Below, piece after piece: positions 10,901 to 56,874 of a DNA stretch of 64,000 nucleotides. The position numbers and the translations under genes were made by a program. The notes below the pieces were generated by a model. That model had not been told where the DNA came from and made no database searches. It saw nothing but the letters and a program-made list of their open reading frames with translations. Location: positions 12-64,011 of the forward strand of contig JAJRUN010000126.1 in the NCBI GenBank assembly GCA_024277755.1, written 5' to 3'. Numbering within the stretch: the stretch's first letter is position 1; each line of letters begins with the position of its first letter. The stretch is from Gammaproteobacteria bacterium. Its GTDB lineage: Bacteria > Pseudomonadota > Gammaproteobacteria > Tenderiales > Tenderiaceae.

Positions 10901-12727
10901 CTACGGTTTTTCATCCTCATGCATAGCCGTTTCCATTGCCGCCACAAGGGCGTCTACATCTACCGGCTTGGTGAGATAGTCAACAAAACCCAACGCCTTG
11001 CCTCGCTCCAGATCCCGACTCATCGCATTGGCACTGATCGCAATCACAGGAATCCCCCGAGTCTCTTCAAACGCCTGCAATCTGAAAAAGGCCGTAAACC
11101 CATCCATCCCTGGCAGATTGATATCCATTAAGATCAGCTCAGGACGATGCAAGCGGGCCAACTCTATTCCCAGTATAGCGTCATGGGCCGACAGTAATGC
11201 ATAGGGCGTACAAAGCTCAATCACCCGCTCCACCAGACGTAGATTTGCCGGGTTATCCTCGATGTAAAGCACGGTTGCCTGATTAGTTTTATCAACCTGT
11301 TCGACTGACTCTAGGCCTGATTGACAAGCCAAATCAGAAGCTTCCTGCTTCGGGACAGATGCGCCACGCTCAACCTCAACCCAAAAGGTACTGCCCTTAC
11401 CCGGAGCACTTTCAACACCAATGGCTCCCCCCATCGCTTCAGTCAGGCGTTTGGATATCACCAAACCAATACCGGTTCCATCCACACCACTCGTCTCTGC
11501 ACCTAGACGTTCAAAAGGGACAAACAGGCGCTGTTGCTGTTCTTCACTCAAGCCGATTCCGGTGTCGGTAACAGAAAACCGCAAACGTCCTGATGCTTGC
11601 ATTTCACAATGCAGACTTACCTTGCCACCTGGCTGATTATACTTGATGGCATTAGACAGCAGATTAACCAACACCTGTTTGAAACGGGTGAAGTCGACAT
11701 AAATCACTGCCTCTGTGCTTTTACAACATGGCTCACTCAGTTCTATCTCATGGTTCTTTGCCAGCGGGCGTACCAATGCAAGGCTTTCACTGCATATCCT
11801 GCTGCATAATACGTCTTCGAGCATCAAATCCAGCTTGCCTGACTCAACCCTGGATAAATCCAACACCTCATTGATAAGTTCAAGCAGGTGATCCCCTGCC
11901 CGCATAATCTCGGCAATATGTTCTCTGTTTTCCGGGTCATCAATTTCCAATTCAAGCAGCTGGGAAAACCCCAGAATGGCATTCATCGGCGTGCGTAATT
12001 CATGACTCATTCGCGACAAAAATTCAGACTTGGCCTGGCTGGCCTTTTCAGCCTCTTCACGCGTATCAACAAGCCCCTGGTGCACAGACTGCAAATCTCG
12101 CCGCATCGCCTCGAAGCCCCGGGTAAGATGGCCAATCTCATCATTAGAGAACTCTGGTAGCTGGACATCAAAATCCCCCTCAGCCATGTGGCTTGCGGCC
12201 TTCTCAAGCCTCAACAGTGGTCGTCGAATCTGACGTTCCTGGAACAACACCCCTGCCGCTAACAAAACCAGCAACACCAACAATAGCAACAGTTCTATAT
12301 TGTGCATCTGAGCCAAGGCATTCAAATACTCAGCTTCAAGATCCACCACCAAACTGATATCGGCAACCCTCTCCCCCCCCCATACCAAGGGGTGATTTAA
12401 CCGGACAAGAAACCCACCCTTTGGCTGCGGACGCGCAATTAAAGGATAAAGCCGTTTACCATCCGGCTTACGCAACTCAAGCCAAACCCAAACACCTTGC
12501 CGCGCTTCCATCTGACGATCCAGAATGGCGTACATTGCCGCCAAATCACCGCGTAACAAAACTCGCGCCACCCCCGACTCCATCGCCCCCAGTATCTGAT
12601 GTTCCCGCCCAACACCTACCTCCTTCTCCCCCGCCAGTATTTGCGGCACGATATAGAAATGAATCACCAGCATCAAAATGGTGAAAGCAAGCACAATTGG
12701 CCATAATAATTTAGAACGTATCCCCAT
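10901..12727 (-). CDS. Hybrid sensor histidine kinase / response regulator (TM-periplasmic-TM-HAMP-HisKA-HATPase-REC)
   Basis: 608 aa. H-box [15 protein letters not shown]2 box [12 protein letters not shown], and a C-terminal receiver (VLYIEDNP...[13 protein letters not shown]...YLTKP). Confidence 0.9.
12373..12381 (-). repeat. G9 homopolymer (coding strand) inside the hybrid kinase
   Basis: Counted directly: c x9 on the plus strand, read as TGG GGG GGG GAG (W-G-G-E) in the periplasmic domain. Confidence 0.95.
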
Positions 12728-17060: not shown

Positions 17061-17089
17061 GTCACAAAGTGACAAAAAGTGTCAGTCAC
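17061..17089 (+). promoter_or_regulatory. Candidate PilR enhancer (UAS): clustered GTCAC/GTGAC/GTGTC half-sites
   Basis: GTCAC-aaa-GTGAC-aaaaa-GTGTC-a-GTCAC, about 160-185 nt upstream of the -24/-12 element. The P. aeruginosa PilR site contains repeated (C/G)TGTC units. Confidence 0.45.
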
Positions 17090-17114
17090 ACACATATAAA
17101 CACCCCGTACAGCA

Positions 17115-17123
17115 CCCCCCCCC
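17115..17123 (+). repeat. C9 homopolymer between the putative enhancer and the sigma-54 promoter of pilA
   Basis: Counted directly (agca ccccccccc tcgg). Confidence 0.95.
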
Positions 17124-17245
17124 TCGGGCCAGACACAGACAATCCCCCTCTAAACCTTTTTTCAGCCCCAAAAAATGTGACATAATGCACATTCCACCAA
17201 GGAAGGACGGGCAAAAACACTTCAACACCCTCCTCTTCTGGCTTT

Positions 17246-17261
17246 TGGCACGGGACGTGCA
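17246..17261 (+). promoter_or_regulatory. Sigma-54 (-24/-12) promoter of pilA
   Basis: TGGCAC-gggac-GTGCA matches TGGCAC-N5-TTGCW with GG and GC correctly spaced. It lies 133 nt upstream of the pilA ATG and downstream of a sigma-54 activator gene. Confidence 0.8.
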
Positions 17262-17393
17262 ATACAACTACCGAGACAAAAAACTTCTCAGGACATTAAA
17301 GTCTGAAAACGACAGACCGATATGAATAGCGAAGGACATTTTGACTGGGTTCTTAACTGATAAACAAACTGCTTAGGCACGAGGAGAAACATC

Positions 17394-17849
17394 ATGAAAA
17401 AAGTACAACAAGGTTTTACACTGATTGAGCTGATGATCGTAGTAGCAATCATCGGTATTTTGGCAGCGGTAGCGATTCCTGCTTATCAGGATTATACGGT
17501 TAAGGCGAAGGTGAGCGAAGCAACCGGCATCTCTTCACCTGCCCGTACCGCCATTGGCCTGGCATGTAGTGAAGGCAATCTAAACGGCATAACTCACACT
17601 GGCTTGGGGCTTGGCACCAAAACAGACTACAGCGGCACCTATGTGACTAGCGTACTAGCTGCCGGCACCAGCGCTACAGCAGGGACTGTTACTGTCGACA
17701 TGAAAGCCATTGGTAGTTCTGTTGCTTCTGGCGATGATGTTGTCTACACAGCTGCTTGTGGTCCCGGTGGTGTTAAATGGACTATCACTGGCACAGGCAA
17801 ACTGGCTGCCTCTGGCGCTTCAAAAGGTAAATATCTGCCTAAGCAATAA
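17394..17849 (+). CDS. pilA: Type IVa major pilin
   Basis: 151 aa. Short leader MKKVQQG then [27 protein letters not shown] (prepilin peptidase site G|F, Glu5). AGGAGA Shine-Dalgarno sequence upstream. Confidence 0.93.
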
Positions 17850-17940: not shown

Positions 17941-19980
17941 GTGAACAGGCCCACCAAAAAACATCGCTACAGCCTACTAATCCTAATCATACTGACCTGT
18001 TTAGCCTACCTACCCGGACTTAGCAATTTTATGCTCTCCGACGATATCCCAAATATCGCCAACAACCACGCAATCCAAATAGAAACACTCGACAGTAATA
18101 GCCTATTAACAGCTGCTAGCGCCAATGACAGTGGCCCACTAAAACGCCCACTTTCAAGTCTCAGCTTTGGTTTAAACTACTACTACTCTGGCAAACAGCT
18201 AGATGCATCAGATTTCAAAATAACAAACCTGGCAATTCACATTATCAATGGGATTCTAATTTATATAATTGCCTTATATTTAATAAAAGCGCTAAACATT
18301 CCAGCAAGAATCACATTACCCGAAAAACCATTAGCCCTATTCATTGCAGCGGCATGGGCGCTTCACCCTATCCAACTAACAGCCGTGCTTTATATCGTGC
18401 AACGCATGGCCAGCATGTCAGCTCTATTTGCCCTTGCAGGCCTGCTAGTTTTTATTATTGGCAGAATACGTTTTACAGAAAAGAAACCCTACGCTGCAGC
18501 ACAAATGTATATCGGCATAGGACTAGGCACTCTCCTTGGCGCTTTATGCAAGGAAAATGCATTATTACTACCATATCTGGCACTCGTAATTGAGATAAGC
18601 ATTCTTAGCAACCTAAGCCTCACCAACCAAAAACAGAAAAAACAACTCACTATCTTCTACAGTCTAACTGCTGGCATCCCGGCAATACTGGCACTTTTAT
18701 TTCTCAGCATGAATCCTGGGATCATTTTTAATGGCTATTCATTTAGGGACTTTACGCTCAGCGAACGAGTAATGACAGAATCCCGAATACTGATGCTTTA
18801 TATTGTGCAGATATTATATCCAGCTATACAAAATTTAACGCTACATCACGACAACATAGAAATCAGCCGCAGCCTTCTACAACCTTGGACAACACTAGTA
18901 GCTTGCTTATCAATAATAGCCTCTGTGGTACTTTCACTACGATTCAGAAAAAAACAACCAATTCTCGCCTTTGCCATTTTATGGTTCTTGGCCGCACACG
19001 CAATGGAGTCAAGCATACTTCCATTAGTACTGATGTATGAACACCGAAACTACCTTGCAAGCTTTGGAATCATCTTTGCCGCTGGCTATTACATTTACAT
19101 TCTCATCAATCAGCTCAGCAACAAGCCACTCATAACAACCGGCACGCCAATCATGATAATTATATGCCTTACCGCGCTAACGCATGTACGTTCAAACATT
19201 TGGTCAAGCCCTGAGACACTGACCTACTTCGATGTGAAAAATCATCCAGATTCAGCTCAAGCCCACTCATCCAGAGCTAAACACCTCCTACAATCTCATG
19301 GAGATATACTAGAAATATACGAGCACCTCAGAGCCAGTTCGAAGCTGAACCCGTCTGACCCAACCTCTCTTATGACCATGCAGCAATTGCTCGCAGCCCT
19401 TAAATCACAGATCACAAACGGCGAATGGATCAACAATCCAACTACAAACCAACCCAGTAGCTATGATGACAAACCAATAATCAATAGCATTTATATTGAT
19501 AAGCTGGCCCAACACATCAATCAAGAAACAAATGCTCGACTAAAACATCAAAAAATATCTGCAGCTACTGCAATGGCATTAAAATCCAGCAGTGAATGCG
19601 CCGTAAAATCCCAAGCACCACAGTGTTTGGCAGTCATTAATGAAATCCAAGAATGGCTAGATAGCGCGTTACAGAACCAAAGCCTTCCAGGCAACCAAAG
19701 ACCTATTATTTACGCCGCACGCGCATGGATAAACGCGTACAAAGGGGATATTGACCTAGCCTATAATGACCTCGACGCAGCCTACCAGGAGCAACCACAA
19801 GAAGTTTACCTGCTCATTGAAAAGCTAACATTGCATATCACTCTGCAAGAACGAGAAAAAGCAGACTTATTGATCCAGAAAATAGAAAGCCACCCATCTC
19901 TATCTCTGCATCACATACGTACCCTTAAAAACATTAAGCACGCCTTAAATAAACCCCAAAAAAACATCATTGACCATTAA
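17941..19980 (+). CDS. GT-C-fold membrane glycosyltransferase with C-terminal TPR-like domain (PMT/TMTC/DUF1736-like), paralogue 1
   Basis: 679 aa. Multi-spanning N-terminal domain with an acidic first-loop motif LSDDIPNI and the blocks WALHPIQLTAVLYIVQRM and MYEHRNYLASFG. Soluble helical-repeat C-terminus. GTG start. Confidence 0.65.
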   Translation: MNRPTKKHRYSLLILIILTCLAYLPGLSNFMLSDDIPNIANNHAIQIETLDSNSLLTAASANDSGPLKRPLSSLSFGLNYYYSGKQLDASDFKITNLAIHIINGILIYIIALYLIKALNIPARITLPEKPLALFIAAAWALHPIQLTAVLYIVQRMASMSALFALAGLLVFIIGRIRFTEKKPYAAAQMYIGIGLGTLLGALCKENALLLPYLALVIEISILSNLSLTNQKQKKQLTIFYSLTAGIPAILALLFLSMNPGIIFNGYSFRDFTLSERVMTESRILMLYIVQILYPAIQNLTLHHDNIEISRSLLQPWTTLVACLSIIASVVLSLRFRKKQPILAFAILWFLAAHAMESSILPLVLMYEHRNYLASFGIIFAAGYYIYILINQLSNKPLITTGTPIMIIICLTALTHVRSNIWSSPETLTYFDVKNHPDSAQAHSSRAKHLLQSHGDILEIYEHLRASSKLNPSDPTSLMTMQQLLAALKSQITNGEWINNPTTNQPSSYDDKPIINSIYIDKLAQHINQETNARLKHQKISAATAMALKSSSECAVKSQAPQCLAVINEIQEWLDSALQNQSLPGNQRPIIYAARAWINAYKGDIDLAYNDLDAAYQEQPQEVYLLIEKLTLHITLQEREKADLLIQKIESHPSLSLHHIRTLKNIKHALNKPQKNIIDH

Positions 19981-20180
19981 TAATTTATAAAGGACTATTG
20001 TTAACAGCAGTAATAAAAAATATAGCCAGTTAAAAAAACAACATATAAATGCAGAGACAAACACCATTGGCAAAGAACAGCCAGATAACAGCATTTCAAT
20101 ATGTGACGCAGGTCAGCTCCAATATCACGCCCCCTATCTCATAAAAAAACTCACTGCCATCAAGCCCGGAACCACCGCGA

Positions 20181-29574: not shown

Positions 29575-29900
29575 GTTTTATACCTATAATTCTTAGTTGT
29601 TCACGTCATTAAAAAAACAAAAATTGACCACGACCTTTATGGATAGCTAGATACTGTCAATATCAGTATTACAATCATCCACTATGCATTAATAGGCGGT
29701 TGAAATAAAGATGCTAATAAGAATAGCCAGTTAGGGCGTCCCTATTAACTCTGAGCGTGACAGTTTGAACCCCAAACACTTTAAATCAAGGCGTAAATCG
29801 CAGGTAATAGCGGGACTATTGCCATGATTTTCAACGCAGAGGTAACGGTTAAAATGCTCGTTCATGAGTTAACAGAGGCGTCCTTTAGTATTATTTTCCA

Positions 29901-30806
29901 CTACCGCCCCACTATCCCCATGTAGCCACTTAGCTTAACAATAGAATAAACAGTCATATCTGCGACCAAAACAACCACACGAAAACCGGCTACAACTACC
30001 ATTAATGCGGTTATTGATATATCACTATCAAGCAACATACTAACCACTGTTTCAAACACACCAACTCCTTGAGGGGCAAATAAGGATACATACCCCACTC
30101 CCCATGAAAACAGATAGATGCCTGCTGTTTCGACAGCGGGTGGAACACCCAGACCATTGGACATAGCACCCACATATAAAACAAATGCTATCGTAGCAAG
30201 AAGCCAAAACAATATAACAACACACAGCATTAACAAATATTGAAAAAAAGAAACCCTTTTTCCACCTGATAGCCGTCGCAGATTAACCGCAGGAAAGCCC
30301 ACAAACAGACCGACTGAAGCCAGAACAAAAACTAACAGCACGCCGCCTTCCCATAACATCCAGCCCTTTTGCAGACAAAGAAGAAGAGAACCAAACAGAA
30401 AGGTAATGACTACAGCGAATAAATTTTCAAGAAACAGAAAAACGGCAATGCTCTTGGGATCAATCCCTATCGAACGAAATTCGGCAATACGGCCAACGGT
30501 GTGCCAAATTCCTCCAGGTATATACTTTGCTGGCAGGTAACGTACATGAATCATTAATGCCGAACAATAATCTAAATTAACCCCTCGCGGTCGAAAAACT
30601 CTTGCGTAGAATAAAGGTGACACAAAATGTCCTCCTCCCCAAATAAGCCCCGCTAAGGCCACCCCGCCCCAGTCTGCTGTGGAAAACACATCTATTAATA
30701 AATCTCTTGATTGCCAGGCGAACCAAGCAATACACATAAATGCAATCGGTGTAAAAACCAGCTTTGCCCAAGATACCAACCGTTGCTGCCATTTTGGTCT
30801 AGACAT
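29901..30806 (-). CDS. Polytopic membrane protein, UPF0104 / MprF-flippase-like (LPG_synthase_TM-type) domain
   Basis: 301 aa with about 8 hydrophobic segments. It is paired with a GT2 directly upstream, a common arrangement for this family. Assigned by recollection only. Confidence 0.5.
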   Translation of the reverse strand: MSRPKWQQRLVSWAKLVFTPIAFMCIAWFAWQSRDLLIDVFSTADWGGVALAGLIWGGGHFVSPLFYARVFRPRGVNLDYCSALMIHVRYLPAKYIPGGIWHTVGRIAEFRSIGIDPKSIAVFLFLENLFAVVITFLFGSLLLCLQKGWMLWEGGVLLVFVLASVGLFVGFPAVNLRRLSGGKRVSFFQYLLMLCVVILFWLLATIAFVLYVGAMSNGLGVPPAVETAGIYLFSWGVGYVSLFAPQGVGVFETVVSMLLDSDISITALMVVVAGFRVVVLVADMTVYSIVKLSGYMGIVGR

Positions 30807-30856
30807 ATACCTTCTTCACCCGTACAAAACTAAACCCCATAAAAAACCAAGCAGGA

Positions 30857-31729
30857 TTATTTATTTCCAGACATATAACGCGCCATAAAAGTGGGAAGCA
30901 GTGCCACTATAACAACCAACTTCTCCAATCTACTTAATTCAGACCTTATAACCACGCGCAACAACTCAAGAGGTAGCCTCAACAATGGAAACACCTTACC
31001 AACTGACGACGTTATCAAGCTAAACTCTTTGTCTTTATAGCGTTTAAGTTTTTCTTTATGGGACTCATCCCCTCTGAATTCACGCCTAGCCCACATAGCT
31101 GAAGTCGCATGAATAAAATCACCTTTTAATGACAGCTCAGAAAGCACGATTAAATCAGCACCAGCACAACTATGAATTTTTTTGATTTCACACAAATAAG
31201 AACGTCTCATCAGTCCCAGAATTGGATGCATATTTCCCCATAAGACGGTAAAGAACCGGGCAATAGGATCCATTCCCCTGGTATCAGCCCAACCAGACTC
31301 CCTGCCAAAAGTATCTCCATGAGCATCAACCCACTCAGCTGTCCCAAATGCCAACGCGGCACCAGGGTGACACTGCAAAACCCTGACTGTCTCACAAATC
31401 AAATTCTCAGCCCAAAGATCATGCCCCGCCGCCCACATAAAATATTTACCAGAAGATCGCTCTAAAACCGATAAAAAATTTTTTGAGGCTCCAACATTAT
31501 GATTAAATCGGTAGTAACTTATCCTGTCATCAAGCTGAGCATACTCGTGGCAAATATCAGCAGTTTCATCCGTTGATCCATTATCAGAAACTATAATTTC
31601 CAAATTCCGATAATTTTGTGCCAAAAGAGAGTCCAAGGACTCTCTAATAAATTCCCCTTCGTTATATACCGGCATTCCAATTGAGACCAAGGGGCCATCA
31701 TCCTCCAAAACCTTATTTATCATGCTCAT
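30857..31729 (-). CDS. GT2 family glycosyltransferase (soluble/peripheral type)
   Basis: 290 aa. VSIGMPVYNEGEFIRESLDSLLAQNYRNLEIIVSDNGSTDET. No C-terminal TM helices. Confidence 0.8.
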   Translation of the reverse strand: MSMINKVLEDDGPLVSIGMPVYNEGEFIRESLDSLLAQNYRNLEIIVSDNGSTDETADICHEYAQLDDRISYYRFNHNVGASKNFLSVLERSSGKYFMWAAGHDLWAENLICETVRVLQCHPGAALAFGTAEWVDAHGDTFGRESGWADTRGMDPIARFFTVLWGNMHPILGLMRRSYLCEIKKIHSCAGADLIVLSELSLKGDFIHATSAMWARREFRGDESHKEKLKRYKDKEFSLITSSVGKVFPLLRLPLELLRVVIRSELSRLEKLVVIVALLPTFMARYMSGNK

Positions 31730-31966: not shown

Positions 31967-33709
31967 ATGTCACCAGCATTAAAACAGGAAATTATGGACA
32001 ACGCCGCAAACAGTTTTCAGTTAACAGGCCTTTCACGTCGACTCGTCGATGATGGGTTAATGAGTAGTGATGATGCTGAAAAAGCATTTTCTGAAGCAAC
32101 CAAAGAAAAAATCCCGCTAATTAGACATCTAGTCAATCAGAAAATCATACCTGCCATCGACATCGCCACCTCTGCCGCCAACGAATTTGGTGCTCCGGTC
32201 TTTGATCTCGACGTCATGGACATGGACCTAACATCCCCCCCCCTGATTGATGAAAAATTAATTCGCAAACACAATGCACTGCCCTTAACCAAACGCGGCA
32301 GCCGGCTCTATATTGCACTATCAGACCCCACCAATGTTGAAGCGCTGGACGAAATTAAATTTGCGACAGGGATAAATACTGAAGCTGTCATTGTTGAAGA
32401 TGACAAGCTGGCCAAACTCATCGAAAAAACCCTTGAAGCCATGGACACCACAATGGAAGGGCTTGATGATGCAGATCTGGATGATCTCGATATAACAGGC
32501 GGTGACGAAGACAGCGATGGTGATGATGTCAGTGAAAAAGAGACTGAAGAAGCACCGATTGTCCGTTTTGTGAACAAGATTTTACTCGACGCCATTAACA
32601 AAGGCGCATCTGACATCCATTTTGAGCCTTATGAAAAAGTCTACCGGGTTCGCTACCGCCAGGACGGCATGCTGCAGGAAGTAGCAGCCCCACCGATCAG
32701 TCTGGCAGTCAAAATATCCGCCCGCATCAAGGTCATGTCTCGCCTGGACATCTCCGAAAAACGGGTACCACAAGATGGTCGCATGAAAATGCGGCTATCC
32801 AAGACCCGCGCCATCGATTTTCGTGTAAGTACCTGCCCAACGCTGTTTGGTGAAAAGATCGTCATGCGTATTCTTGATCCTACCAGCGCACAAATGGGTA
32901 TTGATGCACTGGGTTATGAACCCGTCCAAAAAGATCTGTACATGGCGGCGCTACAAAAACCGACCGGCATGATCTTGGTCACTGGTCCGACCGGTAGTGG
33001 TAAAACCGTTTCTCTCTATACCGGTCTCAACATCCTTAACACCCCTGAACGTAATATTTCTACCGCAGAAGATCCAGCGGAAATCAACTTGCCCGGCGTT
33101 AATCAGGTCAATGTAAACCCCAAGGTAGGCCTGACCTTTTCGGCGGCACTGAAAGCATTCCTGCGCCAGGATCCGGACATCATTATGGTGGGGGAAATTC
33201 GCGACATAGAAACAGCAGAAATCGCTATTAAGGCTGCTCAAACCGGCCATATGGTACTTTCAACCCTGCACACCAATGACGCGCCACAAACCCTGTCGCG
33301 GTTGATGAATATGGGCGTCGCCCCGTTCAACATTGCTTCGGCGGTATCCCTGATAATCGCCCAGCGTCTTGGCCGACGCCTATGTTCACATTGCAAAGAA
33401 CCCGCTGACATACCCAAAGAGGCCTTGATTAAAGAAGGCTTTCACGAAAACGAGACCGATTCTCTTAAACTCTATAAAGCCGTTGGCTGCGATCAATGTA
33501 ACGAAGGTTACAAAGGCCGTGTTGGTATTTATCAAGTAATGCCAATCTCTGAAGAAATGGGTAGAATCATCATGTCGGACGGTAATGCAATTGATATTGC
33601 CGACCAGGCCAAAAAGGAAGGCATCCCCGATCTTCACGATTCAGCACTGGAAAAAGCGCGCCAGGGCGTTACCAGTCTGGAAGAGATCAACCGGGTAATC
33701 ACGGAGTAA
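31967..33709 (+). CDS. pilB: Type IV pilus assembly ATPase PilB
   Basis: 580 aa. Walker A GPTGSGKT, Asp box, Walker B IIMVGEIRD, His box, tetracysteine CSHC...CDQC. A likely alternative start is the ATG at 31994 (MDNAANSFQLTGL). Confidence 0.93.
   Translation: MSPALKQEIMDNAANSFQLTGLSRRLVDDGLMSSDDAEKAFSEATKEKIPLIRHLVNQKIIPAIDIATSAANEFGAPVFDLDVMDMDLTSPPLIDEKLIRKHNALPLTKRGSRLYIALSDPTNVEALDEIKFATGINTEAVIVEDDKLAKLIEKTLEAMDTTMEGLDDADLDDLDITGGDEDSDGDDVSEKETEEAPIVRFVNKILLDAINKGASDIHFEPYEKVYRVRYRQDGMLQEVAAPPISLAVKISARIKVMSRLDISEKRVPQDGRMKMRLSKTRAIDFRVSTCPTLFGEKIVMRILDPTSAQMGIDALGYEPVQKDLYMAALQKPTGMILVTGPTGSGKTVSLYTGLNILNTPERNISTAEDPAEINLPGVNQVNVNPKVGLTFSAALKAFLRQDPDIIMVGEIRDIETAEIAIKAAQTGHMVLSTLHTNDAPQTLSRLMNMGVAPFNIASAVSLIIAQRLGRRLCSHCKEPADIPKEALIKEGFHENETDSLKLYKAVGCDQCNEGYKGRVGIYQVMPISEEMGRIIMSDGNAIDIADQAKKEGIPDLHDSALEKARQGVTSLEEINRVITE
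32235..32243 (+). repeat. C9 homopolymer inside pilB coding sequence
   Basis: Counted directly: ACA TCC CCC CCC CTG (T-S-P-P-L), about codon 90 of pilB. Confidence 0.95.
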
Positions 33710-33712
33710 CAA

Positions 33713-34942
33713 ATGGCAGGCAAAACAGCAAAAAAACACGACACCTTCCTCTGGGAAGGCACGGACAAACGTGGCAACCGCACCAAAGGTGAAGTTATGG
33801 CTGCCTCACCGACCCTGGCCAAAGCTGAATTACGCCGTCAGGGCGTTAACCCACTTAAGGTCAAAAAAAAACCTAAACCATTGTTTGGCGGGGGCAAAAA
33901 AGGTAAACAAATCACCCCCAAAGACATTGCTATTTTCAGTCGGCAAATGGCCACCATGATGAGTTCAGGTGTGCCCTTGGTTCAATCATTTGAGATCGTT
34001 GGTCGCGGCCATGAAAACCCATCCATGCAGGACATGTTGCTCAAGATCAAAAACGACATCGAAGGCGGCAATTCATTTGCCGAGGCACTATCAAAATTTC
34101 CGGATCAGTTTGACGGCCTTTACTGCAACCTGGTCAATGCCGGTGAGCAGGCCGGTATTCTTGAAACCATGCTCAACAAGGTTGCCCTCTATAAAGAAAA
34201 AATTGAGGCCATTAAAGGCAAAATCAAGAAGGCCATGTTCTACCCTGTTGCCGTTGTAATCGCAGCCTTCGTTGTTACCGCCATTCTACTGATCTTTGTC
34301 GTACCCCAGTTCGCCACGATGTTTGCTGACTTTGGTGCAGACCTGCCGGCCATGACCCTCATGGTAGTTGCCATGTCAAATTTCATGGTCGAGTATTGGT
34401 ATATAGTCATAGGCATTATTTACGCAGTGCTGTTTACTTTCAAGCAAGCCAAGAGAAAGTTCCAGGCCTTTCGTGATTTTCTCGATAGAGCAGTACTCAA
34501 GGCCCCTATTTTTGGCTCATTACTGCACAAGGCAGCCATCGCCCGCTTTGCCCGTACCCTGTCCACTATGTTCGCCGCCGGTGTGCCCCTAGTTGAAGCC
34601 ATGACCACTGTCGCCGGGGCTGCCGGTAATGTCGTCTATACAAACGCCATTCTGCGCATGCGTGATGAAATTTCCACCGGCATTTCGTTGCAACAGGCCA
34701 TGCGTCAAACCCAACTGTTTCCCAATATGGTGGTGCAACTGGTGGCAATCGGTGAAGAGGCTGGCTCCATTGATGCCATGCTGGCTAAAGTAGCCGACTT
34801 TTATGAAGAAGAGGTCGACAACGCTGTTGACGCCCTCAGCAGCCTGATGGAACCCCTGATCATGGCCTTCCTCGGTGTCATTATCGGTGGTCTGGTTGTG
34901 GCGATGTACCTGCCGATATTCAAGATGGGTCAGGTTGTCTAA
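33713..34942 (+). CDS. pilC: Type IV pilus platform protein PilC
   Basis: 409 aa with two GspF-type repeats and 3 TM segments, between pilB and pilD. Confidence 0.92.
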   Translation: MAGKTAKKHDTFLWEGTDKRGNRTKGEVMAASPTLAKAELRRQGVNPLKVKKKPKPLFGGGKKGKQITPKDIAIFSRQMATMMSSGVPLVQSFEIVGRGHENPSMQDMLLKIKNDIEGGNSFAEALSKFPDQFDGLYCNLVNAGEQAGILETMLNKVALYKEKIEAIKGKIKKAMFYPVAVVIAAFVVTAILLIFVVPQFATMFADFGADLPAMTLMVVAMSNFMVEYWYIVIGIIYAVLFTFKQAKRKFQAFRDFLDRAVLKAPIFGSLLHKAAIARFARTLSTMFAAGVPLVEAMTTVAGAAGNVVYTNAILRMRDEISTGISLQQAMRQTQLFPNMVVQLVAIGEEAGSIDAMLAKVADFYEEEVDNAVDALSSLMEPLIMAFLGVIIGGLVVAMYLPIFKMGQVV

Positions 34943-51728: not shown

Positions 51729-52828
51729 GTGGTTACAACTGTCAGACTCATCTTCATTTCACTCGTCTCAATATTTTTGCTATCCGGCTGTGGTGGCAAC
51801 AGCAATGCAAACTTTGAAGACCCCAACCTGGAAGCCTGTGTTAATAAAGCGGTTAGTAATAGCGAGGTTGCTGAGGCGCAAGAGTTAACTGAACTCAATT
51901 GTTGGGGCAAACAAATCACCTCTATAAAGGGGCTGGAAAAACTGACCAACCTAACCAATCTCCAACTAGGCAATAACAACATCAGTGACATCAGTGCATT
52001 ATCAGGACTAAGTGACCTAACACACTTATACCTAAGTTGGAATAACATCAATGACATCAGAGCACTATCAAAACTATCTGGCTTAACAAACCTCCAACTA
52101 AACGGCAACAAGCTCACCGACCTCAGTGCGCTGGCAGGACTGACAAACCTGTCGTCGCTCACTCTGTACGGCAACAATCTCACTGACATCAGCACACTGG
52201 CAGAACTGACCAACCTGTCGTCGCTTGACCTGGGCTACAACAATCTCACTGACATCAGCACACTGGCAGGACTGAACAACCTGTCCTCGCTCAACCTGAG
52301 CAACAACAAGCTCTCTGACATCAGCACACTAACAGAACTGACCAACCTGTCGTGGCTCAACTTGCGTAACAACGATCTCACTGACATCACAGCCTTGGCA
52401 GAGCAGGAAATTTAAGACATATCGACCTAAGCAACAACAAGCTCACTGATATCGTTTTTTTAGCCGAGCTAGGGGATTTAGGCTCTCTCTATCTAGACAA
52501 CAATAACCTCAGCGATATCACTGCTCTGGTCGGGCTGACGAATCTGAGAGGACTCTATTTAAGCAATAACAATCTAACTGACATAAGCGCATTAGCGGGG
52601 CTTACTAACCTGACTGGACTCAATCTTGATAGCAACGGTCTCACCGATATCAGCACTCTAACAGGGCTAACCAACCTGTGGTGGCTCAGTTTGACCAACA
52701 ACGATCTCTCTGACATCAGTGCACTGGCTGAGCTAGTCAACTTGGAATATCTCTATATAGATTACAACAACATAACTGACTTTAGCCCTCTTGATGATCT
52801 AACCAGCCTGAAAGTAATCGAAAAATAA
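51729..52828 (+). pseudogene. Internalin-like leucine-rich-repeat lipoprotein, split by a -1 frameshift near 52404-52406
   Basis: Lipobox LLSGC, then eight 22-aa LRR units in the tracked ORF (ends 52415). My translation from 52406 in the neighbouring frame gives GNLRHIDLSNNKLTDIVFLAELGDL...LTSLKVIEK*, six more perfect units ending at TAA 52826-52828. Confidence 0.75.
51885..52825 (+). repeat. Tandem 66-nt (22-codon) LRR coding repeats, 14 units
   Basis: Units of the form LxxLxxLxLxxNxLxDIxxLxx. Units 5-8 (52140-52403) share long identical nucleotide stretches. Confidence 0.9.
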
Positions 52829-53067: not shown

Positions 53068-56000
53068 TTGGGAGATACAACGTTGGAATTTTGCAGCAAA
53101 AAACTCGTGTTAGCCACCTTTGTCGGCCTCGCCCTGACAGGGTGTTTTGAAGATAAGGTTGAGCTGATCGGCCCGGCGGCAAGCCAGGCCAGCAGTTCGT
53201 CCTCCAGCTCTAGCACCAGCAATAACAAACCCGGCGCCAATGCCGGGGCTGATCAAACCGTTGATGAATTCAACACTGTCACCCTTGATGGCTCTGAAAG
53301 CACGGACAGCGATGGCAGCATTGCCTCTTACCGCTGGAATCAGGTGAGCAATGGCGCACCGGCCGTTACGCTGGCGAATGCAGAGACGGTTCAGGCTTCT
53401 TTCACTGCGCCGGATGTGTCTGTGGATACAAAGTTTGAATTCAGTCTGATCATTATTGACGATGACAACAGTTCCGGGATAGACAATGTAATCATTAATG
53501 TCACCGCCACTCCCGTTGCCGTGACCAATTTACCCCCTGTCTTTGATGGTGTTCCCGAAGTCGGCAAACAGCTGACATTAACCCTGAATGCACAAGACCC
53601 TATTGGTGATGCCAGCTGGTCAATCATCAGCCAACCCGGTGGGTCAGACATTACGCTGAGCACGTCGAGCGATCAGAAAACCCTGACCTTTACGCCAACA
53701 GTGGCGGGAGATTACCAATTGCTGGTGGAGTCCAGCACTACGTCCTCCAGCCAGGCCATTAACTTTGCGGTTGCCGCCGCAACTCCAAGCTTTAACAGCG
53801 ATCAAATCAATGCCTTAAGTGGCAGTTCAACCACCGCGCTGGGCACAATTCAAAATCAGGTTTGGGTCAGTTCGACCAGTCTGACTGAGGCGCAAATAAC
53901 CGCCTTGGTGTCTGATATGACCGGTTTTACCATCATAGATTTTGACGAAAGTGCAGGCCTATTAATTGAATTTGACGCAACCAATACCAGCATTCCAGAG
54001 CTGCTGGCGCAACTGGAAATGACAGCGGGAATCGATAGTGTGGAACCCCGTATTTTTGAAGGACTGGGAACGGGTAAAGATGAGGCCATTACACCCAATG
54101 ACGGCAGTGCATTTGATGATTTGGGTGATAACTGGCATTTGGAACAACTTAAACTCACTGATGCCTGGGAATTCACCACGGGTAACAGTGCTGTGTTGGT
54201 GGGGGTTTCTGATGGCGGTTTTGATAGCCGCCACGATGAGTTGGGCGGCCGGGTGTTGTTGCAATATACCGACGACCTGTCTGCTCACGGCAACGCCATT
54301 GCTGCTACCATCGGTGGCAACACGAATAATGGTGTGGGCATCAGCGCCATCAACTGGGTGTCACCCCTGGTGCTGGCTGACAATCAGCTCAGCAGTGTCG
54401 CCGCGCTGTTGAATGTGAACAACCTGAAGGTCGTCAATGGCGGCTGGGCCATCCCCGGCTATATTGATGAGTCGTTTTCTATTTTCAGTGCCAGTTCGGT
54501 GATGGCGCGTTACGAACAGACCCTAACCCTGACCCGCCCTTATCGCCAGTTGGCCAAAACCCATCCACAGCAGTTATTGGTCTGGTCGGCAGGCAATGGC
54601 GTCAACAACGGCAGCAGCAATGTCACTGGTGTCTACGGTGTGGATGGCCGCCTGCACAGCCCGGCGCTGCATTATGACGACAACGGTTTTTTCAATCCCA
54701 TGGACAACGTCATTTTTGTTGGCGCAATGACCAGTGATAGTCGCTTGAAGCATTACAGCAACTATGGCAAGGCGGTGGATATTGTCGCGCCGAGTGGCTA
54801 CAAGGCCGCCGCGCTGGAAGGTGGCTATTTCAGCGCCAACAGCTACGGCAGCAATGAGGCCAGCGGCACCGGCTTTGATGGCACATCGTCTGCGGCGGCC
54901 GCAGTATCAGGCGTTGCCTCTTTGATCTATTCTCTCTATCCCTCATTCACCGGTCAGGAGGTAAAAGAGATCCTGATCAACAGTGCCAGTGAAACCGTCA
55001 GCGAACGTTATATTGGCCCGGGCGATGCAGGCACCGACAACGCCAATATCAAAGCCCTGCCACGCGCCATTCCGGTTCTGGATGCAGCCGCTGCCTTGAC
55101 CATGGCCAAGAGCATTGTCGACAGCAAGGTTGCTGTGGCTGATTACACCCTCCCCAATCCATTGACGGCTCAGGCACGCATCCAGTTCAAATCACTCGAT
55201 GCCGATAGCACCGTGACTGCGATCAACTGGTCTTTGCAGTCATCAGCCAACGGGGTGAATGGTTGGACAACGGTTACTGCCATGAATGTCAACGGTGATC
55301 TGGCCGAACCAACACTGGATACCAGCAGACCGTATCACCGGCTGACGGCCACTGTCACCCTGACAAACACGGCGGATTCGTCCACCAGTCAGGCCAGCAA
55401 AACCTATGACTTTTCCTATTCCACCATCAAGGCCACTCTTAAAGATACGGTCACCCTAGCGGCCCTAAGCGGTGTGACAATCACCCCCGAAGGTCTGAAT
55501 GGGCAAACATTTACCAGCACCGCAACCTCGAACGCTAATGGCGAGATTACTCTCTACGTCAACCAGGGTGCTTATAAGCTGTTAAGCACACTGACAGACT
55601 ATCAGGACGGGGCCATCAGTTTCACGGCTGATGGCGAAACCGATCAAAGCTTTGATTTCTACATGGCCAGTGCTGATCTGGTTCCGACGGATGGTGTGGG
55701 CGGCGTCAGCTCGTTGAGCGGTTATATCTTTGATCTGAATGGTGACCCGGTGGCAGAGGCCGTGGTTCGAATCTCTGGCGGTGCCAGCACCAACGGCTTT
55801 TTCGCCTCGGTGATTACCGGCAGTGACGGCCGTTTTGGCTTCTCCAACATATCGCGCAAGGATGCCAGCGGCAACGCCATTCAATCGTTTACCGTTCAGG
55901 CAACTGCTGAGAACTTTTTCAGTTCAACCAAAGAGGGCTTTGTTTTATTGTCGGGCAAAGATCACACCGAGGTCATCCCGCTGGTGGATCAAAGTCAGTT

Positions 56001-56874
56001 CGGTGAGACGCTGTTTGCAGATGACTTTGAGTCTGGCATCAACGATTGGCTGGCCGATGGCTTCTGGCATCAGGAGACACTCGACGGCAGCATCGCCAAC
56101 ACACTGGTAGATGGTGGCTTCACTTCGCTGGCACCCGATGAAGCCGGCCCGCAAGCACTGCTGCCGTTTGCCACCAGTGGTGACATGGCCTGGTGGTATG
56201 GTCAGGCCGACACCGGTTCCTTCATCGGCACGCAAAGCGCTAATGATTCGCAGCAAAGCGGTGGACGTTCCGAAGAAGATAATAGCGGCCAGCTATCCAC
56301 CCCGAGCATTGATCTGACCAATGCCATATCGCCAGTGCTGTTGTTCAATACTTGGTGGGAGGTAGAGTCGGTCAACCCCAATGCATCGGGTTTCGATATT
56401 CTTGAAATATTGATCAGTACCAACGATGGCAGCACCTATACCTCGATCAAACGCTTGAATCCGTTTGTCGATCCTAACGACTCGGATCGTAATCACAAGC
56501 CCTTCTCATCCGGCGGTTTTTTCCGCAAGCCAGTCTGGGTTATCGAAGAAATGGATCTCAGTGATTACGTTGGCAAGACCATTAGGATTCAATTCAAGTT
56601 TGATACCCGGGATGCTCTGTACAACGGTTTTCGCGGCTGGATCATCGATGATTTACGTGTGATTGATGTGACTTCAATCACCACAGGGTCAGGGGCAAGC
56701 TCAGGATCTGGCCTGGGTTCAGACTCAGGGGCAGCCTTGAACATAGGCATAAAAACTTCGGCACCGCTGGAACAAACAGTGCCGCAAGGTTACTTCAGTG
56801 GTTTGAGTGAGTCATTTCTGGACGCACACAAACGCCCTAAAGAATCTAAGGAGCTACCGCCAGCCAGCCGTTAA
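53068..56874 (+). CDS. Large secreted/lipoprotein subtilisin-family (S8) serine peptidase with PKD-like and beta-sandwich accessory domains
   Basis: 1268 aa. Lipobox LALTGC and a Ser-rich linker. PKD-like module (ANAGADQTV...TLDGSESTDSDGSIASYRW). S8 triad blocks VGVSDGGFD, HGNAIAATIGG, GTSSAAAAVSGVASL. TTG start. Confidence 0.8.
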   Translation: MGDTTLEFCSKKLVLATFVGLALTGCFEDKVELIGPAASQASSSSSSSSTSNNKPGANAGADQTVDEFNTVTLDGSESTDSDGSIASYRWNQVSNGAPAVTLANAETVQASFTAPDVSVDTKFEFSLIIIDDDNSSGIDNVIINVTATPVAVTNLPPVFDGVPEVGKQLTLTLNAQDPIGDASWSIISQPGGSDITLSTSSDQKTLTFTPTVAGDYQLLVESSTTSSSQAINFAVAAATPSFNSDQINALSGSSTTALGTIQNQVWVSSTSLTEAQITALVSDMTGFTIIDFDESAGLLIEFDATNTSIPELLAQLEMTAGIDSVEPRIFEGLGTGKDEAITPNDGSAFDDLGDNWHLEQLKLTDAWEFTTGNSAVLVGVSDGGFDSRHDELGGRVLLQYTDDLSAHGNAIAATIGGNTNNGVGISAINWVSPLVLADNQLSSVAALLNVNNLKVVNGGWAIPGYIDESFSIFSASSVMARYEQTLTLTRPYRQLAKTHPQQLLVWSAGNGVNNGSSNVTGVYGVDGRLHSPALHYDDNGFFNPMDNVIFVGAMTSDSRLKHYSNYGKAVDIVAPSGYKAAALEGGYFSANSYGSNEASGTGFDGTSSAAAAVSGVASLIYSLYPSFTGQEVKEILINSASETVSERYIGPGDAGTDNANIKALPRAIPVLDAAAALTMAKSIVDSKVAVADYTLPNPLTAQARIQFKSLDADSTVTAINWSLQSSANGVNGWTTVTAMNVNGDLAEPTLDTSRPYHRLTATVTLTNTADSSTSQASKTYDFSYSTIKATLKDTVTLAALSGVTITPEGLNGQTFTSTATSNANGEITLYVNQGAYKLLSTLTDYQDGAISFTADGETDQSFDFYMASADLVPTDGVGGVSSLSGYIFDLNGDPVAEAVVRISGGASTNGFFASVITGSDGRFGFSNISRKDASGNAIQSFTVQATAENFFSSTKEGFVLLSGKDHTEVIPLVDQSQFGETLFADDFESGINDWLADGFWHQETLDGSIANTLVDGGFTSLAPDEAGPQALLPFATSGDMAWWYGQADTGSFIGTQSANDSQQSGGRSEEDNSGQLSTPSIDLTNAISPVLLFNTWWEVESVNPNASGFDILEILISTNDGSTYTSIKRLNPFVDPNDSDRNHKPFSSGGFFRKPVWVIEEMDLSDYVGKTIRIQFKFDTRDALYNGFRGWIIDDLRVIDVTSITTGSGASSGSGLGSDSGAALNIGIKTSAPLEQTVPQGYFSGLSESFLDAHKRPKESKELPPASR

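What the first reader, a model, noticed from the sequence alone, without database searches (positions are those of the whole stretch)
32235..32243. C9 homopolymer inside pilB; 9-nt G/C tracts are over-represented and concentrated in pilus and glycosylation genes
SEEN: I counted exactly nine consecutive C (or G on the coding strand) at 12373-12381 (hybrid kinase), 17115-17123 (pilA upstream region), 24302-24310 (sugar methyltransferase) and 32235-32243 (pilB, TCC CCC CCC CTG near codon 90). There is also an 8-mer at 23980-23987 (CmcI-like methyltransferase) and an A9 run in pilC (33863-33871). Assuming equal base frequencies, about 0.4 G/C runs of 9 or more are expected in 64 kb (64000 x 0.75 x 0.25^9 x 2). 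ESTABLISHED: poly-G/C tracts of about 8 or more are the classical slipped-strand switches of contingency loci. Examples are Neisseria pilC and pgl genes and the Campylobacter flagellin-glycosylation and capsule methyltransferases. INFERENCE: a +/-1 slip in pilB would switch piliation off. All tracts are in the ON frame in this assembly.
Basis: partly seen in the sequence, partly recalled or inferred. Interest (0 to 1): 0.65.

Follow-up and report, generated by a model that had tools for sequence, protein, structure and literature searches.

The report
Slippage-prone C9 tracts around pilus genes
Four runs of exactly nine C/G really are in this 64-kb contig from an uncultivated Tenderia-like marine bacterium, one of them inside the pilus-assembly gene pilB. 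That is about ten times more than expected, so they are credible on/off slippage switches, but no data available here show that their length actually varies.

Summary
C9 runs sit at 12373-81 (hybrid kinase), 17115-23 (pilA upstream), 24302-10 (sugar methyltransferase) and 32235-43 (pilB). There is a C8 in a CmcI-like methyltransferase and an A9 in pilC. All genes are in frame.

The excess is real but moderate. Expected numbers are 0.34-0.6, giving P about 0.001-0.02. G/C run counts match 135 kb of related genomes for lengths 3-8 and exceed them only at 9 (4 against 0.5 per 64 kb).

Three tracts are specific to this lineage. Relatives carry interrupted versions at the same sites:
- pilB: TCC ACC TCG
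- methyltransferase: TGG GGT GGT
- pilA upstream: CCAACAAC

The kinase G9 is shared with some relatives and comes and goes by one synonymous change.

A slip of one base in pilB gives a stop within 3-5 codons.

Against an evolved switch: the clustering in pilus and sugar genes is not significant, since half of the codon-permitted sites lie there. The pilA-upstream tract sits in a spacer whose length already varies among species. Relatives' pilus loci lack such tracts.

No sequence from the same species exists in any collection searched, so length variation could not be tested.

Verdict: plausible but unproven phase-variation loci, about 45%. Incidental tracts are nearly as likely, about 38%. 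If real, this is a new member of a known kind, of modest interest.

The parts
32235..32243 (+). C9 tract inside pilB (TCC CCC CCC CTG, Ser-Pro-Pro-Leu). The residues lie in a variable loop of the N-terminal region.
   Evidence: Relatives have TCC ACC TCG CTG, TCA ACT TCC CTG or GCC GCC TCA CTA at this site. The loop is variable across 80 homologues and reads A-S-T-S in relatives of 85-92% identity. A -1 or +1 slip gives a stop 3 or 5 codons on.
31994..33709 (+). pilB, the type IV pilus extension ATPase. The called start is 31994; the longest ORF starts at 31967.
   Evidence: Pfam T2SSE E = 6e-153 and MshEN. It is 571 aa in the database, as P0001. pilC starts 4 nt after the pilB stop.
24302..24310 (-). 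G9 tract (coding strand) in a 361-aa SAM-dependent sugar methyltransferase: TGG GGG GGG GCA, Trp-Gly-Gly-Ala, codons 276-279.
   Evidence: W276 and G277 are invariant, and G278 and A279 at least 90% conserved, in 20 homologues. All 11 relative loci (3 lineages) read TGG GGT GGT GCA with identical flanks.
24051..25136 (-). Methyltransf_23/Methyltransf_14 methyltransferase gene carrying the G9 tract.
23980..23987 (-). G8 tract in a CmcI/rhamnosyl O-methyltransferase-like gene (GCG GGG GGG GAT, Ala-Gly-Gly-Asp), near the 5' end.
   Evidence: Relatives read GCA GGG AGA GAT, GCG GGT GAT AAT or GCA GGT GCT AAT. Pfam RMNT_CmcI E = 2e-99.
12373..12381 (-). G9 tract in the sensor domain of a hybrid histidine kinase: TGG GGG GGG GAG, Trp-Gly-Gly-Glu, codons 116-119 of 608.
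   Evidence: The same G9 is present in L096/L100 and L097/L101, and a G8 in L104. Four other relatives read TGG GGA GGG.
17115..17123 (+). Intergenic C9 tract between pilR and pilA, inside a non-conserved C/A-rich spacer.
   Evidence: Relatives read CCCACAGCAG (L081) or CCAACAACT (L104). It lies 36 bp upstream of the nearest -35-like hexamer and 123 bp upstream of the sigma-54 -24 element.
17061..17261 (+). pilA control region. It holds a conserved inverted repeat GTCACAAAGTGAC (about 17061-17075, candidate PilR site), the conserved box TGTGACATAAT (17176-17186, extended -10-like) and the sigma-54 promoter TGGCACGGGACGTGC (17246-17260).
   Evidence: Alignment of relatives and promoter scan. 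Repeat-to-box spacing is 110/113/124/112/112 bp in window/L081/L084/L096/L104. Box-to-sigma-54 spacing is 70/70/72/70/70 bp.
17394..17849 (+). pilA, the major type IV pilin.
   Evidence: Pfam N_methyl and Pilin.
17941..31729 (.). Variable island between pilA and pilB. It holds two paralogous polytopic membrane/TPR proteins, GT2 glycosyltransferases and a dTDP-sugar pathway with C- and O-methyltransferases. It has lower G+C (42-46%). It is presumed to be a pilin-glycosylation island.
   Evidence: The island is absent in L081 and different in L084, L096 and L104. Much of it is shared with L083 and L085.
33863..33871 (+). A9 run in pilC (AAA AAA AAA, Lys-Lys-Lys). It is ordinary.
   Evidence: Relatives read AAA AAG or AGA AAG. 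The A-run spectrum decays geometrically.

Best explanation
The tracts are real features of this lineage. Each is an uninterrupted run of nine G:C pairs. Each arose when point substitutions removed the one to four interruptions still present at the same sites in related species.

A run of this length is an intrinsic hotspot for slipped-strand mispairing during replication. In pilB, the methyltransferase, the CmcI-like gene and the kinase, gain or loss of one base shifts the frame and ends translation within 3-42 codons. The next slip restores the frame. The population would therefore always contain a small, reversible fraction of four kinds of cells:
- cells without pili (pilB off, probably with reduced pilC/pilD through lost translational coupling);
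- cells with unmethylated glycan, from the 361-aa methyltransferase;
- cells with unmethylated glycan, from the CmcI-like enzyme;
- cells lacking this kinase.

The most likely benefit is bet-hedging against pilus-specific phages or surface-attachment trade-offs.

Shown: the tracts, their frames, the stops after a slip, their excess and their lineage-specific origin. Inferred: that slippage occurs at useful rates in this organism and that selection maintains the tracts. The pilA-upstream tract is probably not a switch.
For: (1) The excess is specific to length 9. There are 4 runs against 0.34-0.59 expected under five null models, P = 0.001-0.02. Lengths 3-8 match relatives. C. jejuni shows the same shape, with G5/G6/G7/G8 at 303/18/0/4 loci and a mode at 9 (PMC3401435).

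(2) Tract formation needed clustered changes to the run base.
- pilB: 3 substitutions, 2 of them non-synonymous (Thr to Pro, Ser to Pro), in a loop that reads A-S-T-S in most relatives of 85-92% identity.
- Methyltransferase: both GGT codons became GGG, while all flanking synonymous sites are identical in three other lineages.
- CmcI-like gene: AGA became GGG.
- Intergenic: four A to C changes within 6 nt.
- A to C on this strand is otherwise rare. It accounts for 16 of 425 window-specific changes in the pilB-bioF block. Its coding-strand equivalent, T to G, accounts for 6 of 233 in the island.

(3) The positions suit inactivation. pilB is hit at 14-16% of its length, the kinase at 19% and the CmcI-like gene at 13%. 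Stops follow 3-42 codons after a slip.

(4) The pilB tract sits where the amino-acid sequence is unconstrained.

(5) Measured rates for G8-G11 tracts in C. jejuni are 1e-4 to 4e-3 per division (PMC3401435). Homopolymer tracts act as reversible inactivation devices in many prokaryotes (PMC2831843).

(6) Known phase-variable gene classes match. These include pilin and flagellin glycan methyltransferases and sensor kinases, for example the Bordetella bvgS C-tract. This point rests on my own knowledge.
Against: - No tract-length polymorphism was observed, because no conspecific sequence is available.
- Relatives' pilus loci and islands, about 170 kb in all, have no G/C run of 9 or more except at the kinase site. 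A poly-G strategy is therefore not a trait of the clade.
- Clustering in surface genes is not significant.
- The methyltransferase tract lies late in the gene, on an invariant motif that can always come within two synonymous changes of G9.
- The kinase tract appears and disappears by single synonymous transitions across eight lineages, and all are in frame.
- The statistics are post hoc, on four events from a window chosen because it looked unusual.
- Whether the organism has mismatch repair is unknown.
- I know of no precedent for a homopolymer switch in pilB or in a free-living chemolithoautotroph. The one literature search that combined homopolymeric tracts, phase variation and pilB gave no such case.
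Confidence: 0.45

Rival explanations
1. The tracts are incidental. This genome has extreme strand asymmetry. Codon usage on the G-rich strand favours GGG, and on the C-rich strand it favours CCC. A few peptide contexts (Trp-Gly-Gly followed by a G-initial codon, or Ser-Pro-Pro-Leu) can reach exactly 9 by synonymous or near-neutral changes. The tracts would still slip occasionally, but they are neither maintained by selection nor used as switches. Frameshifted cells are simply purged.
For: - GC skew is -0.05 to -0.28 across the whole window. GGG makes up 20.6% of Gly codons on the - strand against 7.9% on the + strand. CCC makes up 36% of Pro codons on the + strand against 17.5% on the - strand.
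- All five tracts are C on the C-rich strand.
- The three coding 9-mers share one codon architecture, xGG GGG GGG Gxx. This explains why they are exactly 9.
- Only about 8 genes hold nearly all of the expected 9-runs, and half of that expectation lies in the pilus/sugar cluster.
- The kinase site toggles GGA/GGG among relatives.
- In the island, the window lineage shows a general excess of changes to G next to GG: 10 of 48 against 6 of 105 excluding the tract itself, P = 0.008.
- The pilA-upstream spacer tolerates length change.
- The P values (0.001-0.02) are not extreme for a window picked because it looked odd.
Against: - The codon-aware null already includes the strand-specific usage and still gives P = 0.004.
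- The run spectrum shows no excess at 6-8.
- The pilB tract needed two non-synonymous changes, and its probability given the protein is only 0.013.
- The intergenic tract needed four identical transversions within 6 nt.
Confidence: 0.38
2. The tracts are a sequencing or assembly artefact. Interrupted runs such as GGTGGT or CCAACAAC were mis-called as homopolymers, for example by the known Illumina GGT to GGG systematic error or by consensus errors at low coverage. On this view the tracts do not exist in the organism.
For: - In the island, 5 of the 6 window-specific T to G changes are GGT to GGG, against 1 of 14 in three control lineages. P = 0.002, or P = 0.019 without the two tract-forming changes.
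- The tract-forming changes are all towards the run base.
- The contig comes from an uncultivated-organism assembly of unknown coverage.
Against: - The same G9 occurs naturally at the kinase site in two independently assembled relatives.
- GGT to GGG accounts for 0 of 7 T to G changes in the 11.4-kb pilB-bioF block. In the left 17 kb it accounts for 19 of 88, against 12 of 79 in controls.
- The overall substitution spectrum of the window lineage matches its relatives.
- All 56 ORFs are intact at 88% coding density, and every coding tract is in frame.
- The pilB and intergenic tracts sit in genuinely diverged neighbourhoods, with other substitutions and a 1-nt length difference nearby.
- Errors of this kind should fall on both strands, yet all five runs are on one strand.
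Confidence: 0.1
3. The tracts act at the RNA or translation level rather than through DNA slippage. Transcriptional slippage or ribosomal frameshifting on the run would produce an alternative protein product or tune expression.
For: Runs of 9 identical bases can provoke RNA-polymerase slippage (my own knowledge). All tracts are in frame in the DNA.
Against: There is no extended alternative reading frame. Stops follow 3-5 codons after a slip in pilB, 15-19 in the kinase, 13-26 in the methyltransferase and 9-42 in the CmcI-like gene. No distinct second product is therefore possible. No Rfam element is present in the window. Relatives manage without the tracts.
Confidence: 0.05

Closest known systems
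Campylobacter jejuni poly-G/C phase-variable genes (the 'phasome'), including capsule and flagellin-glycan methyltransferases
   Same: - Mononucleotide G/C tracts lie inside reading frames, mostly as G on the coding strand.
- The modal length is nine, with few 7- and 8-mers.
- Sugar-modifying methyltransferases are among the targets.
- Conservation of a tract at any one locus among relatives is weak (PMC3401435).
   Different: - C. jejuni is a 31% G+C host-associated bacterium without MutS/MutL mismatch repair (my own knowledge), and switching has been measured there.
- Here the genome is 49.5% G+C with strong strand skew, and the organism is an uncultivated Tenderiales-like marine chemolithoautotroph.
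- Its repair status is unknown and no switching has been seen.
- Relatives of the window do not carry such tracts in their pilus loci.
Neisseria type IV pilus phase variation (the pilC poly-G tract; pgl/pgtA pilin-glycosylation genes)
   Same: Homopolymer tracts lie in genes of the pilus system and of pilin glycosylation. A frameshift turns piliation or a glycan decoration off, reversibly. pgtA is documented in PMC2193922, listed. The rest is my own knowledge.
   Different: - Neisseria PilC is the tip adhesin, not the platform protein called PilC here.
- The assembly ATPase (PilF in Neisseria, PilB here) is not a known phase-variable target.
- In Neisseria the tract lengths vary among strains. 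Here no strain comparison is possible.
Bordetella bvgS C-tract frameshift and the fim2/fim3 promoter poly-C tracts
   Same: A C-run in a sensor-kinase gene, and a C-run upstream of a fimbrial subunit gene that is controlled by a two-component activator (my own knowledge).
   Different: - The Bordetella fim tract lies between the activator site and the -10 element, so its length sets promoter geometry.
- Here the C9 lies in a spacer that tolerates length change, 36 bp upstream of any -35-like hexamer and 123 bp upstream of the sigma-54 -24 element.
- The promoter-spacing mechanism is therefore not met.
Homopolymeric tracts as general gene-inactivation devices in prokaryotes (Orsi et al. 2010, L. 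monocytogenes inlA)
   Same: A tract in the 5' part of a surface-related gene gives a truncated product after a slip. Its mutation frequency is about 1000 times the point-mutation frequency (PMC2831843).
   Different: That study found poly(A)/poly(T) tracts of up to 7 bases over-represented. Here the A/T runs are ordinary, and the excess is confined to G/C 9-mers.

Membership tests
Simple-sequence contingency locus (slipped-strand phase variation) | An uninterrupted mononucleotide repeat long enough to be hypermutable (G/C of about 8 or more) | tested here: met
   Four C9 runs and one C8. For comparison, G8-G9 tracts switch at 2e-4 to 1.2e-3 per division in C. jejuni (PMC3401435).
Simple-sequence contingency locus (slipped-strand phase variation) | The repeat is placed so that a +/-1 change abolishes expression, either in frame within the ORF or between promoter elements | tested here: met
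   Met for the four genic tracts: stops follow 3-42 codons after a slip. Not met for the intergenic tract, which lies outside the promoter elements in a spacer of variable length.
Simple-sequence contingency locus (slipped-strand phase variation) | Repeat length differs within populations or among strains, with both ON and OFF alleles | not testable with these tools
   - The window's own record is hidden.
- The best non-self PilB is 92% identical.
- A metagenome DNA scan allowing any tract length gave 0 hits.
- Every member of the cluster holding each tract-bearing relative is full length.
- At the kinase site, eight lineages show G9, G8 or interrupted versions, all in frame.
Simple-sequence contingency locus (slipped-strand phase variation) | Tracts are more frequent than base or codon composition predicts | tested here: met
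   4 observed against 0.34-0.59 expected, P = 0.001-0.02 under five null models. The sample is small and the test post hoc.
Simple-sequence contingency locus (slipped-strand phase variation) | Tracts are enriched in genes for surface structures or their modification | tested here: inconclusive
   Two of the three coding 9-mers and the 8-mer lie in the pilus/sugar cluster. That cluster also holds 50% of the expected runs of 9 or more under codon resampling.
Simple-sequence contingency locus (slipped-strand phase variation) | Reversible switching of a phenotype | not testable with these tools
   The organism is uncultivated and no phenotype data exist.
Promoter-spacing homopolymer switch (Bordetella fim type) | The tract lies between the activator site and the core promoter, or between -35 and -10, so that its length sets promoter geometry | tested here: not met
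   The C9 at 17115-17123 lies between the upstream inverted repeat and the conserved TGTGACATAAT box. That spacing is 110, 112, 112, 113 and 124 bp in five species, while box-to-sigma-54 spacing is fixed at 70-72 bp.
Programmed recoding at a slippery run (transcriptional slippage or ribosomal frameshift giving a second product) | A substantial alternative-frame ORF continues beyond the run | tested here: not met
   The alternative frames end after 3-42 codons.
Type IV pilus extension ATPase PilB | A T2SSE ATPase domain plus an N-terminal MshEN-type domain, encoded next to pilC and pilD | tested here: met
   Pfam T2SSE E = 6e-153 and MshEN E = 1e-16, with pilC and pilD downstream. It is 85% identical to the protein annotated PilB in Ca. 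Tenderia electrophaga.

The most novel reading that the evidence does not exclude
An uncultivated, free-living marine electroautotroph lineage (Tenderiales) has recently evolved a Campylobacter-style set of poly-G9 switches. These would stochastically and reversibly toggle pilus assembly itself (pilB, not previously known as a phase-variable target), two methyl decorations of a pilin glycan, and a hybrid sensor kinase. The likely use is bet-hedging against pilus-specific phages. This would extend contingency loci from host-associated pathogens to environmental chemolithoautotrophs.
Probability: 0.25. Interest if true: 0.55.

Novelty: new member of a known kind. Interest (0 to 1): 0.3.

Why it matters
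Homopolymer phase variation is textbook biology for a handful of host-adapted pathogens. It is scarcely documented in free-living environmental bacteria. If these tracts switch, they would show three things.
- A marine electrode- and mineral-associated autotroph hedges its bets on piliation and pilin-glycan chemistry. Those are the surface features that pilus-specific phages recognise and that attachment to solid electron donors may need.
- A pilus motor gene can be the switch point.
- Such switches can arise quickly, by two or three substitutions that remove the interruptions in a near-tract.

In practice, the tracts also mark sites where assemblies and gene calls of this lineage may disagree.

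If the tracts are incidental, the finding is a useful caution. Strong strand skew together with Trp-Gly-Gly or Ser-Pro-Pro contexts can generate exact 9-mers that mimic contingency loci.

Tried and rejected
- Finding the same species elsewhere failed. I tried exact-protein look-ups of the window's PilB as the 580-aa and the 571-aa form. I also scanned JGI metagenomes with CTAACATCC-N{0,14}-CTGATTGATGAAAAATTAAT, which would have caught any tract length. Cluster look-ups for truncated members showed full-length proteins only.
It returned only distant relatives (74% identity or less) and missed Ca. Tenderia electrophaga. I used it only as a 1.36-Mb background for run counts and for loop conservation.
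- A lineage-wide mutator or run-extension bias is rejected as the general cause. The window-specific substitution spectrum over 11.4 kb equals that of relatives, and run counts for lengths 3-8 are the same. A local excess of GGN to GGG in the sugar island remains unexplained.
- A shared sequence motif around the tracts is rejected. The flanks have nothing in common beyond the codon phase.
- A promoter-spacing switch upstream of pilA is rejected.
- Recoding to an alternative product is rejected.
- Other repeat types typical of contingency loci, such as tetra- or pentanucleotide arrays, are absent.
- There are no Rfam hits in the window.
- A first Markov-simulation script timed out. I replaced it with analytic estimates.
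- NCBIfam gave no name for the two large genes next to pilA.
- The literature search found no precedent for a homopolymer switch in pilB.
Full report
**What is there**

The window is 49.5% G+C with a very strong strand asymmetry (C 18,185, G 13,471). GC skew runs from -0.05 to -0.28 in every 2-kb bin, whichever strand the genes are on.

- The C9 runs are at 12373-12381, 17115-17123, 24302-24310 and 32235-32243.
- The C8 is at 23980-23987 and the A9 at 33863-33871.
- There is nothing longer, and no G run of 8 or more on the + strand.

Pfam confirms the genes.
- A hybrid HAMP-HisKA-HATPase-receiver kinase lies at 10901..12727 (-).
- Then come pilS, pilR and pilA (17394..17849).
- A 14-kb island of lower G+C follows. 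It holds two large membrane/TPR proteins, GT2 glycosyltransferases, a dTDP-sugar pathway, a CmcI-like O-methyltransferase (23288..24085 -) and a 361-aa Methyltransf_23/14 enzyme (24051..25136 -).
- pilB, pilC and pilD come next.

All tract-bearing ORFs are full length compared with homologues. The three coding 9-mers share one architecture, xGG GGG GGG Gxx. This reads Trp-Gly-Gly-Glu in the kinase, Trp-Gly-Gly-Ala in the methyltransferase and Ser-Pro-Pro-Leu (as C) in pilB. That shared architecture explains why they are exactly nine.

**Whose DNA it is**

The closest named PilB is that of Candidatus Tenderia electrophaga, at 85% identity. Unnamed metagenomic relatives reach 91-92%. The window is essentially a whole 64,065-bp contig from an NCBI record.

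The locus order ileS...HK-pilS-pilR-pilA-(island)-pilB-pilC-pilD-coaE-zapD is shared with the relatives I fetched. Their nucleotide identity to the window is 73-84%. They are therefore different species of the same clade.

**Is it more than chance?**

Five null models give 0.34-0.59 expected runs of 9 or more, against 4 observed.
- Independent bases with the real composition: 0.59. First- to fourth-order context estimates for C runs alone: 0.10-0.53.
- Dinucleotide shuffles: 0.56, with 2 of 100 shuffles reaching 4.
- Resampling synonymous codons with strand-specific usage: 0.34 in coding sequence against 3 observed, P = 0.004. For runs of 8 or more: 1.04 against 4, P = 0.018.
- The rate in 135.6 kb of Tenderiales relatives: 0.47 per 64 kb, P = 0.0014. 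As a conditional test of 4 against 1, P = 0.04.
- The rate in 1.36 Mb of more distant pilB loci: 0.24 per 64 kb.

The most informative comparison is the run spectrum per 64 kb for lengths 3 to 9. The window shows 900/211/56/12/3/1/4. The relatives show 961/222/59.5/13.2/3.3/0.9/0.5. The two are identical up to 8, and the excess is only at 9.

Bayliss et al. describe the same shape for C. jejuni: few G7 and G8 tracts and a mode at G9 (PMC3401435).

- Concentration in pilus and sugar genes. Under codon resampling, half of the expected 9-runs fall in that cluster anyway, because only about eight genes hold nearly all of that expectation.
- The A9 in pilC. It fits a plain geometric decay of A runs.

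**How the tracts arose**

At each orthologous site the relatives carry an interrupted version.
- *pilB.* The window reads TCC CCC CCC CTG. L081 reads TCC ACC TCG CTG, L083 reads TCA ACT TCC CTG and Tenderia reads GCC GCC TCA CTA. The window's Ser-Pro-Pro replaces the Ser-Thr-Ser/Ala of most close relatives. It lies in a loop that varies freely across 80 homologues.
- *Methyltransferase.* The window reads TGG GGG GGG GCA. All eleven relative loci, from three lineages of 77-86% protein identity, read TGG GGT GGT GCA with identical flanking codons. The encoded W-G-G-A is invariant or nearly so in the family.
- *CmcI-like gene.* GCG GGG GGG GAT against GCA GGG AGA GAT.
- *pilA upstream.* CACCCCCCCCCTC against CACCAACAACTCC in L104 and CCCACAGCAG in L081.
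- *Kinase.* G9 is also present in two relatives and G8 in a third. Four others read GGA GGG. The pattern is not monophyletic, so this site toggles by single synonymous transitions.

So three of the four 9-mers are new in this lineage. They were made by clusters of two to five substitutions, all towards the run base. Several of these are A to C on the + strand. That class is otherwise rare among window-specific changes. It accounts for 16 of 425 in the pilB-bioF block. Its coding-strand equivalent, T to G, accounts for 6 of 233 in the island.

**Is it a mutator effect or an artefact?**

The window-specific substitution spectrum over the 11.4-kb pilB-bioF block is the same as in two control lineages. 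Changes that join an existing run are not enriched there.

In the sugar island there is a local excess of changes to G next to GG.
- The count is 12 of 50 against 6 of 105, P = 0.002.
- Without the tract itself it is 10 of 48, P = 0.008.
- Five of the six T to G changes are GGT to GGG.

That is the signature of a known Illumina systematic error (my own knowledge). It is also the signature of a shift in Gly codon preference. Elsewhere the pattern is absent or not different: 0 of 7 in the pilB-bioF block, and 19 of 88 against 12 of 79 in the left 17 kb.

Several observations make an artefact unlikely, at about 10%.
- The kinase G9 occurs in two independently assembled relatives.
- All 56 ORFs are intact.
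- All five runs are on one strand.
- The DNA around the pilB and intergenic tracts is genuinely diverged.

**What a slip would do**

In pilB, a -1 slip gives a stop 3 codons after the tract and a +1 slip gives one 5 codons after. Both fall upstream of the MshEN and ATPase domains. pilC starts 4 nt after the pilB stop, so translational coupling would probably be lost. That step is inference.

The kinase ends after 15-19 codons, the methyltransferase after 13-26 and the CmcI-like gene after 9-42. No alternative frame is long enough for a second product, which rules out programmed recoding.

**The pilA-upstream tract**

The control region contains three conserved elements.
- An inverted repeat GTCACAAAGTGAC with adjacent GTGTC/GTCAC motifs, a candidate PilR site.
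- A conserved TGTGACATAAT box that reads as an extended -10.
- A sigma-54 promoter, TGGCACGGGACGTGC.

The C9 lies in the unconserved spacer between the first two. The length of that spacer is 110, 112, 112, 113 and 124 bp in five species. The box-to-sigma-54 distance is fixed at 70-72 bp. A one-base change there is therefore unlikely to switch pilA. The Bordetella fim type of mechanism is not met.

**What could not be tested**

Length variation is the defining property of a contingency locus, and it could not be tested. The evidence:
- The window's own record is withheld.
- No protein more than 92% identical to its PilB exists among about 15 billion proteins.
- A pattern scan of JGI metagenomes that allowed any tract length found nothing.
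- A second scan for the kinase sensor domain found six relatives, all in frame.
- Cluster members of the tract-bearing relatives are all full length.

**Verdict**

The phase-variation reading is mechanistically sound for pilB, the two methyltransferases and the kinase. Four lines of evidence support it: the spectrum shape, the lineage-specific clustered origin of the tracts, the non-synonymous creation of the pilB tract in an unconstrained loop, and measured rates for such tracts elsewhere (PMC3401435; PMC2831843).

Five points weaken it.
- Such tracts are absent from relatives' pilus loci.
- The kinase site behaves neutrally.
- The methyltransferase tract lies late in the gene, on an invariant motif.
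- The clustering in surface genes is not significant.
- The test is post hoc.

My estimates are about 45% for tracts that act as switches and are maintained as such, about 38% for incidental tracts produced by strand-biased codon usage, about 10% for an artefact, and the rest for other causes. Even if true, this is a new member of a well-known kind of mechanism. The modest novelty lies in the target (the pilus assembly ATPase) and the host (a free-living Tenderiales autotroph).

Noticed in passing
window 17941-19980 and 20181-22238: Two paralogous genes (52% identity) sit directly downstream of pilA. They have no Pfam or NCBIfam family apart from a weak C-terminal TPR match. Each has about 10-11 predicted membrane segments, a conserved L(S/A)DD(I/R)PNI motif after the first segment, and a soluble C-terminal part of about 260 aa. 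One copy follows pilA in Ca. Tenderia electrophaga (L084 1671-3665) and in L085 and L096. They look like an unannotated GT-C-like pilin glycosyltransferase family, but that is inference only.
   Followed up: partly
window 17176-17393: The pilA leader is unusually conserved. A TGTGACATAAT box (extended -10-like) lies exactly 70 bp upstream of the sigma-54 promoter. The leader of about 130 nt between that promoter and the ATG is almost invariant across five species that are only 73-84% identical overall. There is no Rfam match. This may mean two promoters and a regulatory leader RNA.
   Followed up: partly
window 17941-31729 compared with L081, L083, L084, L085, L096, L104: The segment between pilA and pilB is a replaceable island. 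It is absent in one relative, where pilA abuts pilB. It carries different glycosyltransferase sets in three relatives. Much of the same dTDP-sugar and methyltransferase gene set is present in two. In the window it has lower G+C (42-46%) than its surroundings.
   Followed up: partly
whole window: Strand asymmetry is very strong and does not depend on gene orientation. GC skew reaches -0.28. GGG makes up 20.6% of Gly codons in - strand genes against 7.9% in + strand genes. CCC makes up 36% of Pro codons in + strand genes against 17.5% in - strand genes. Relatives show a similar sign and a slightly weaker magnitude.
   Followed up: partly
window 23288-27180 (sugar island, - strand): Window-lineage substitutions to G fall next to an existing GG far more often than in three control lineages. 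The count is 10 of 48 against 6 of 105 excluding the G9 itself, and GGT to GGG accounts for 5 of 6 T to G changes. This is not seen in the pilB-bioF block. The cause is unresolved: a shift in codon preference, a local mutational bias, or base-calling error.
   Followed up: partly
L084 10668-10675 (Ca. Tenderia electrophaga pilB): The complete Tenderia genome has a C8 run inside its own pilB, about 222 codons into the gene. From its position it appears to overlap the conserved Ala-Ala-Pro-Pro motif, but I did not read the sequence there. It is a different site from the window's tract.
   Followed up: no
window 51729-52415 and 53068-56874: A small leucine-rich-repeat protein is built on a 66-bp tandem repeat (52106-52389, 4.3 copies). 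Next to it lies a 1268-aa subtilase with PKD, CarboxypepD_reg and MAM-like domains.
   Followed up: no
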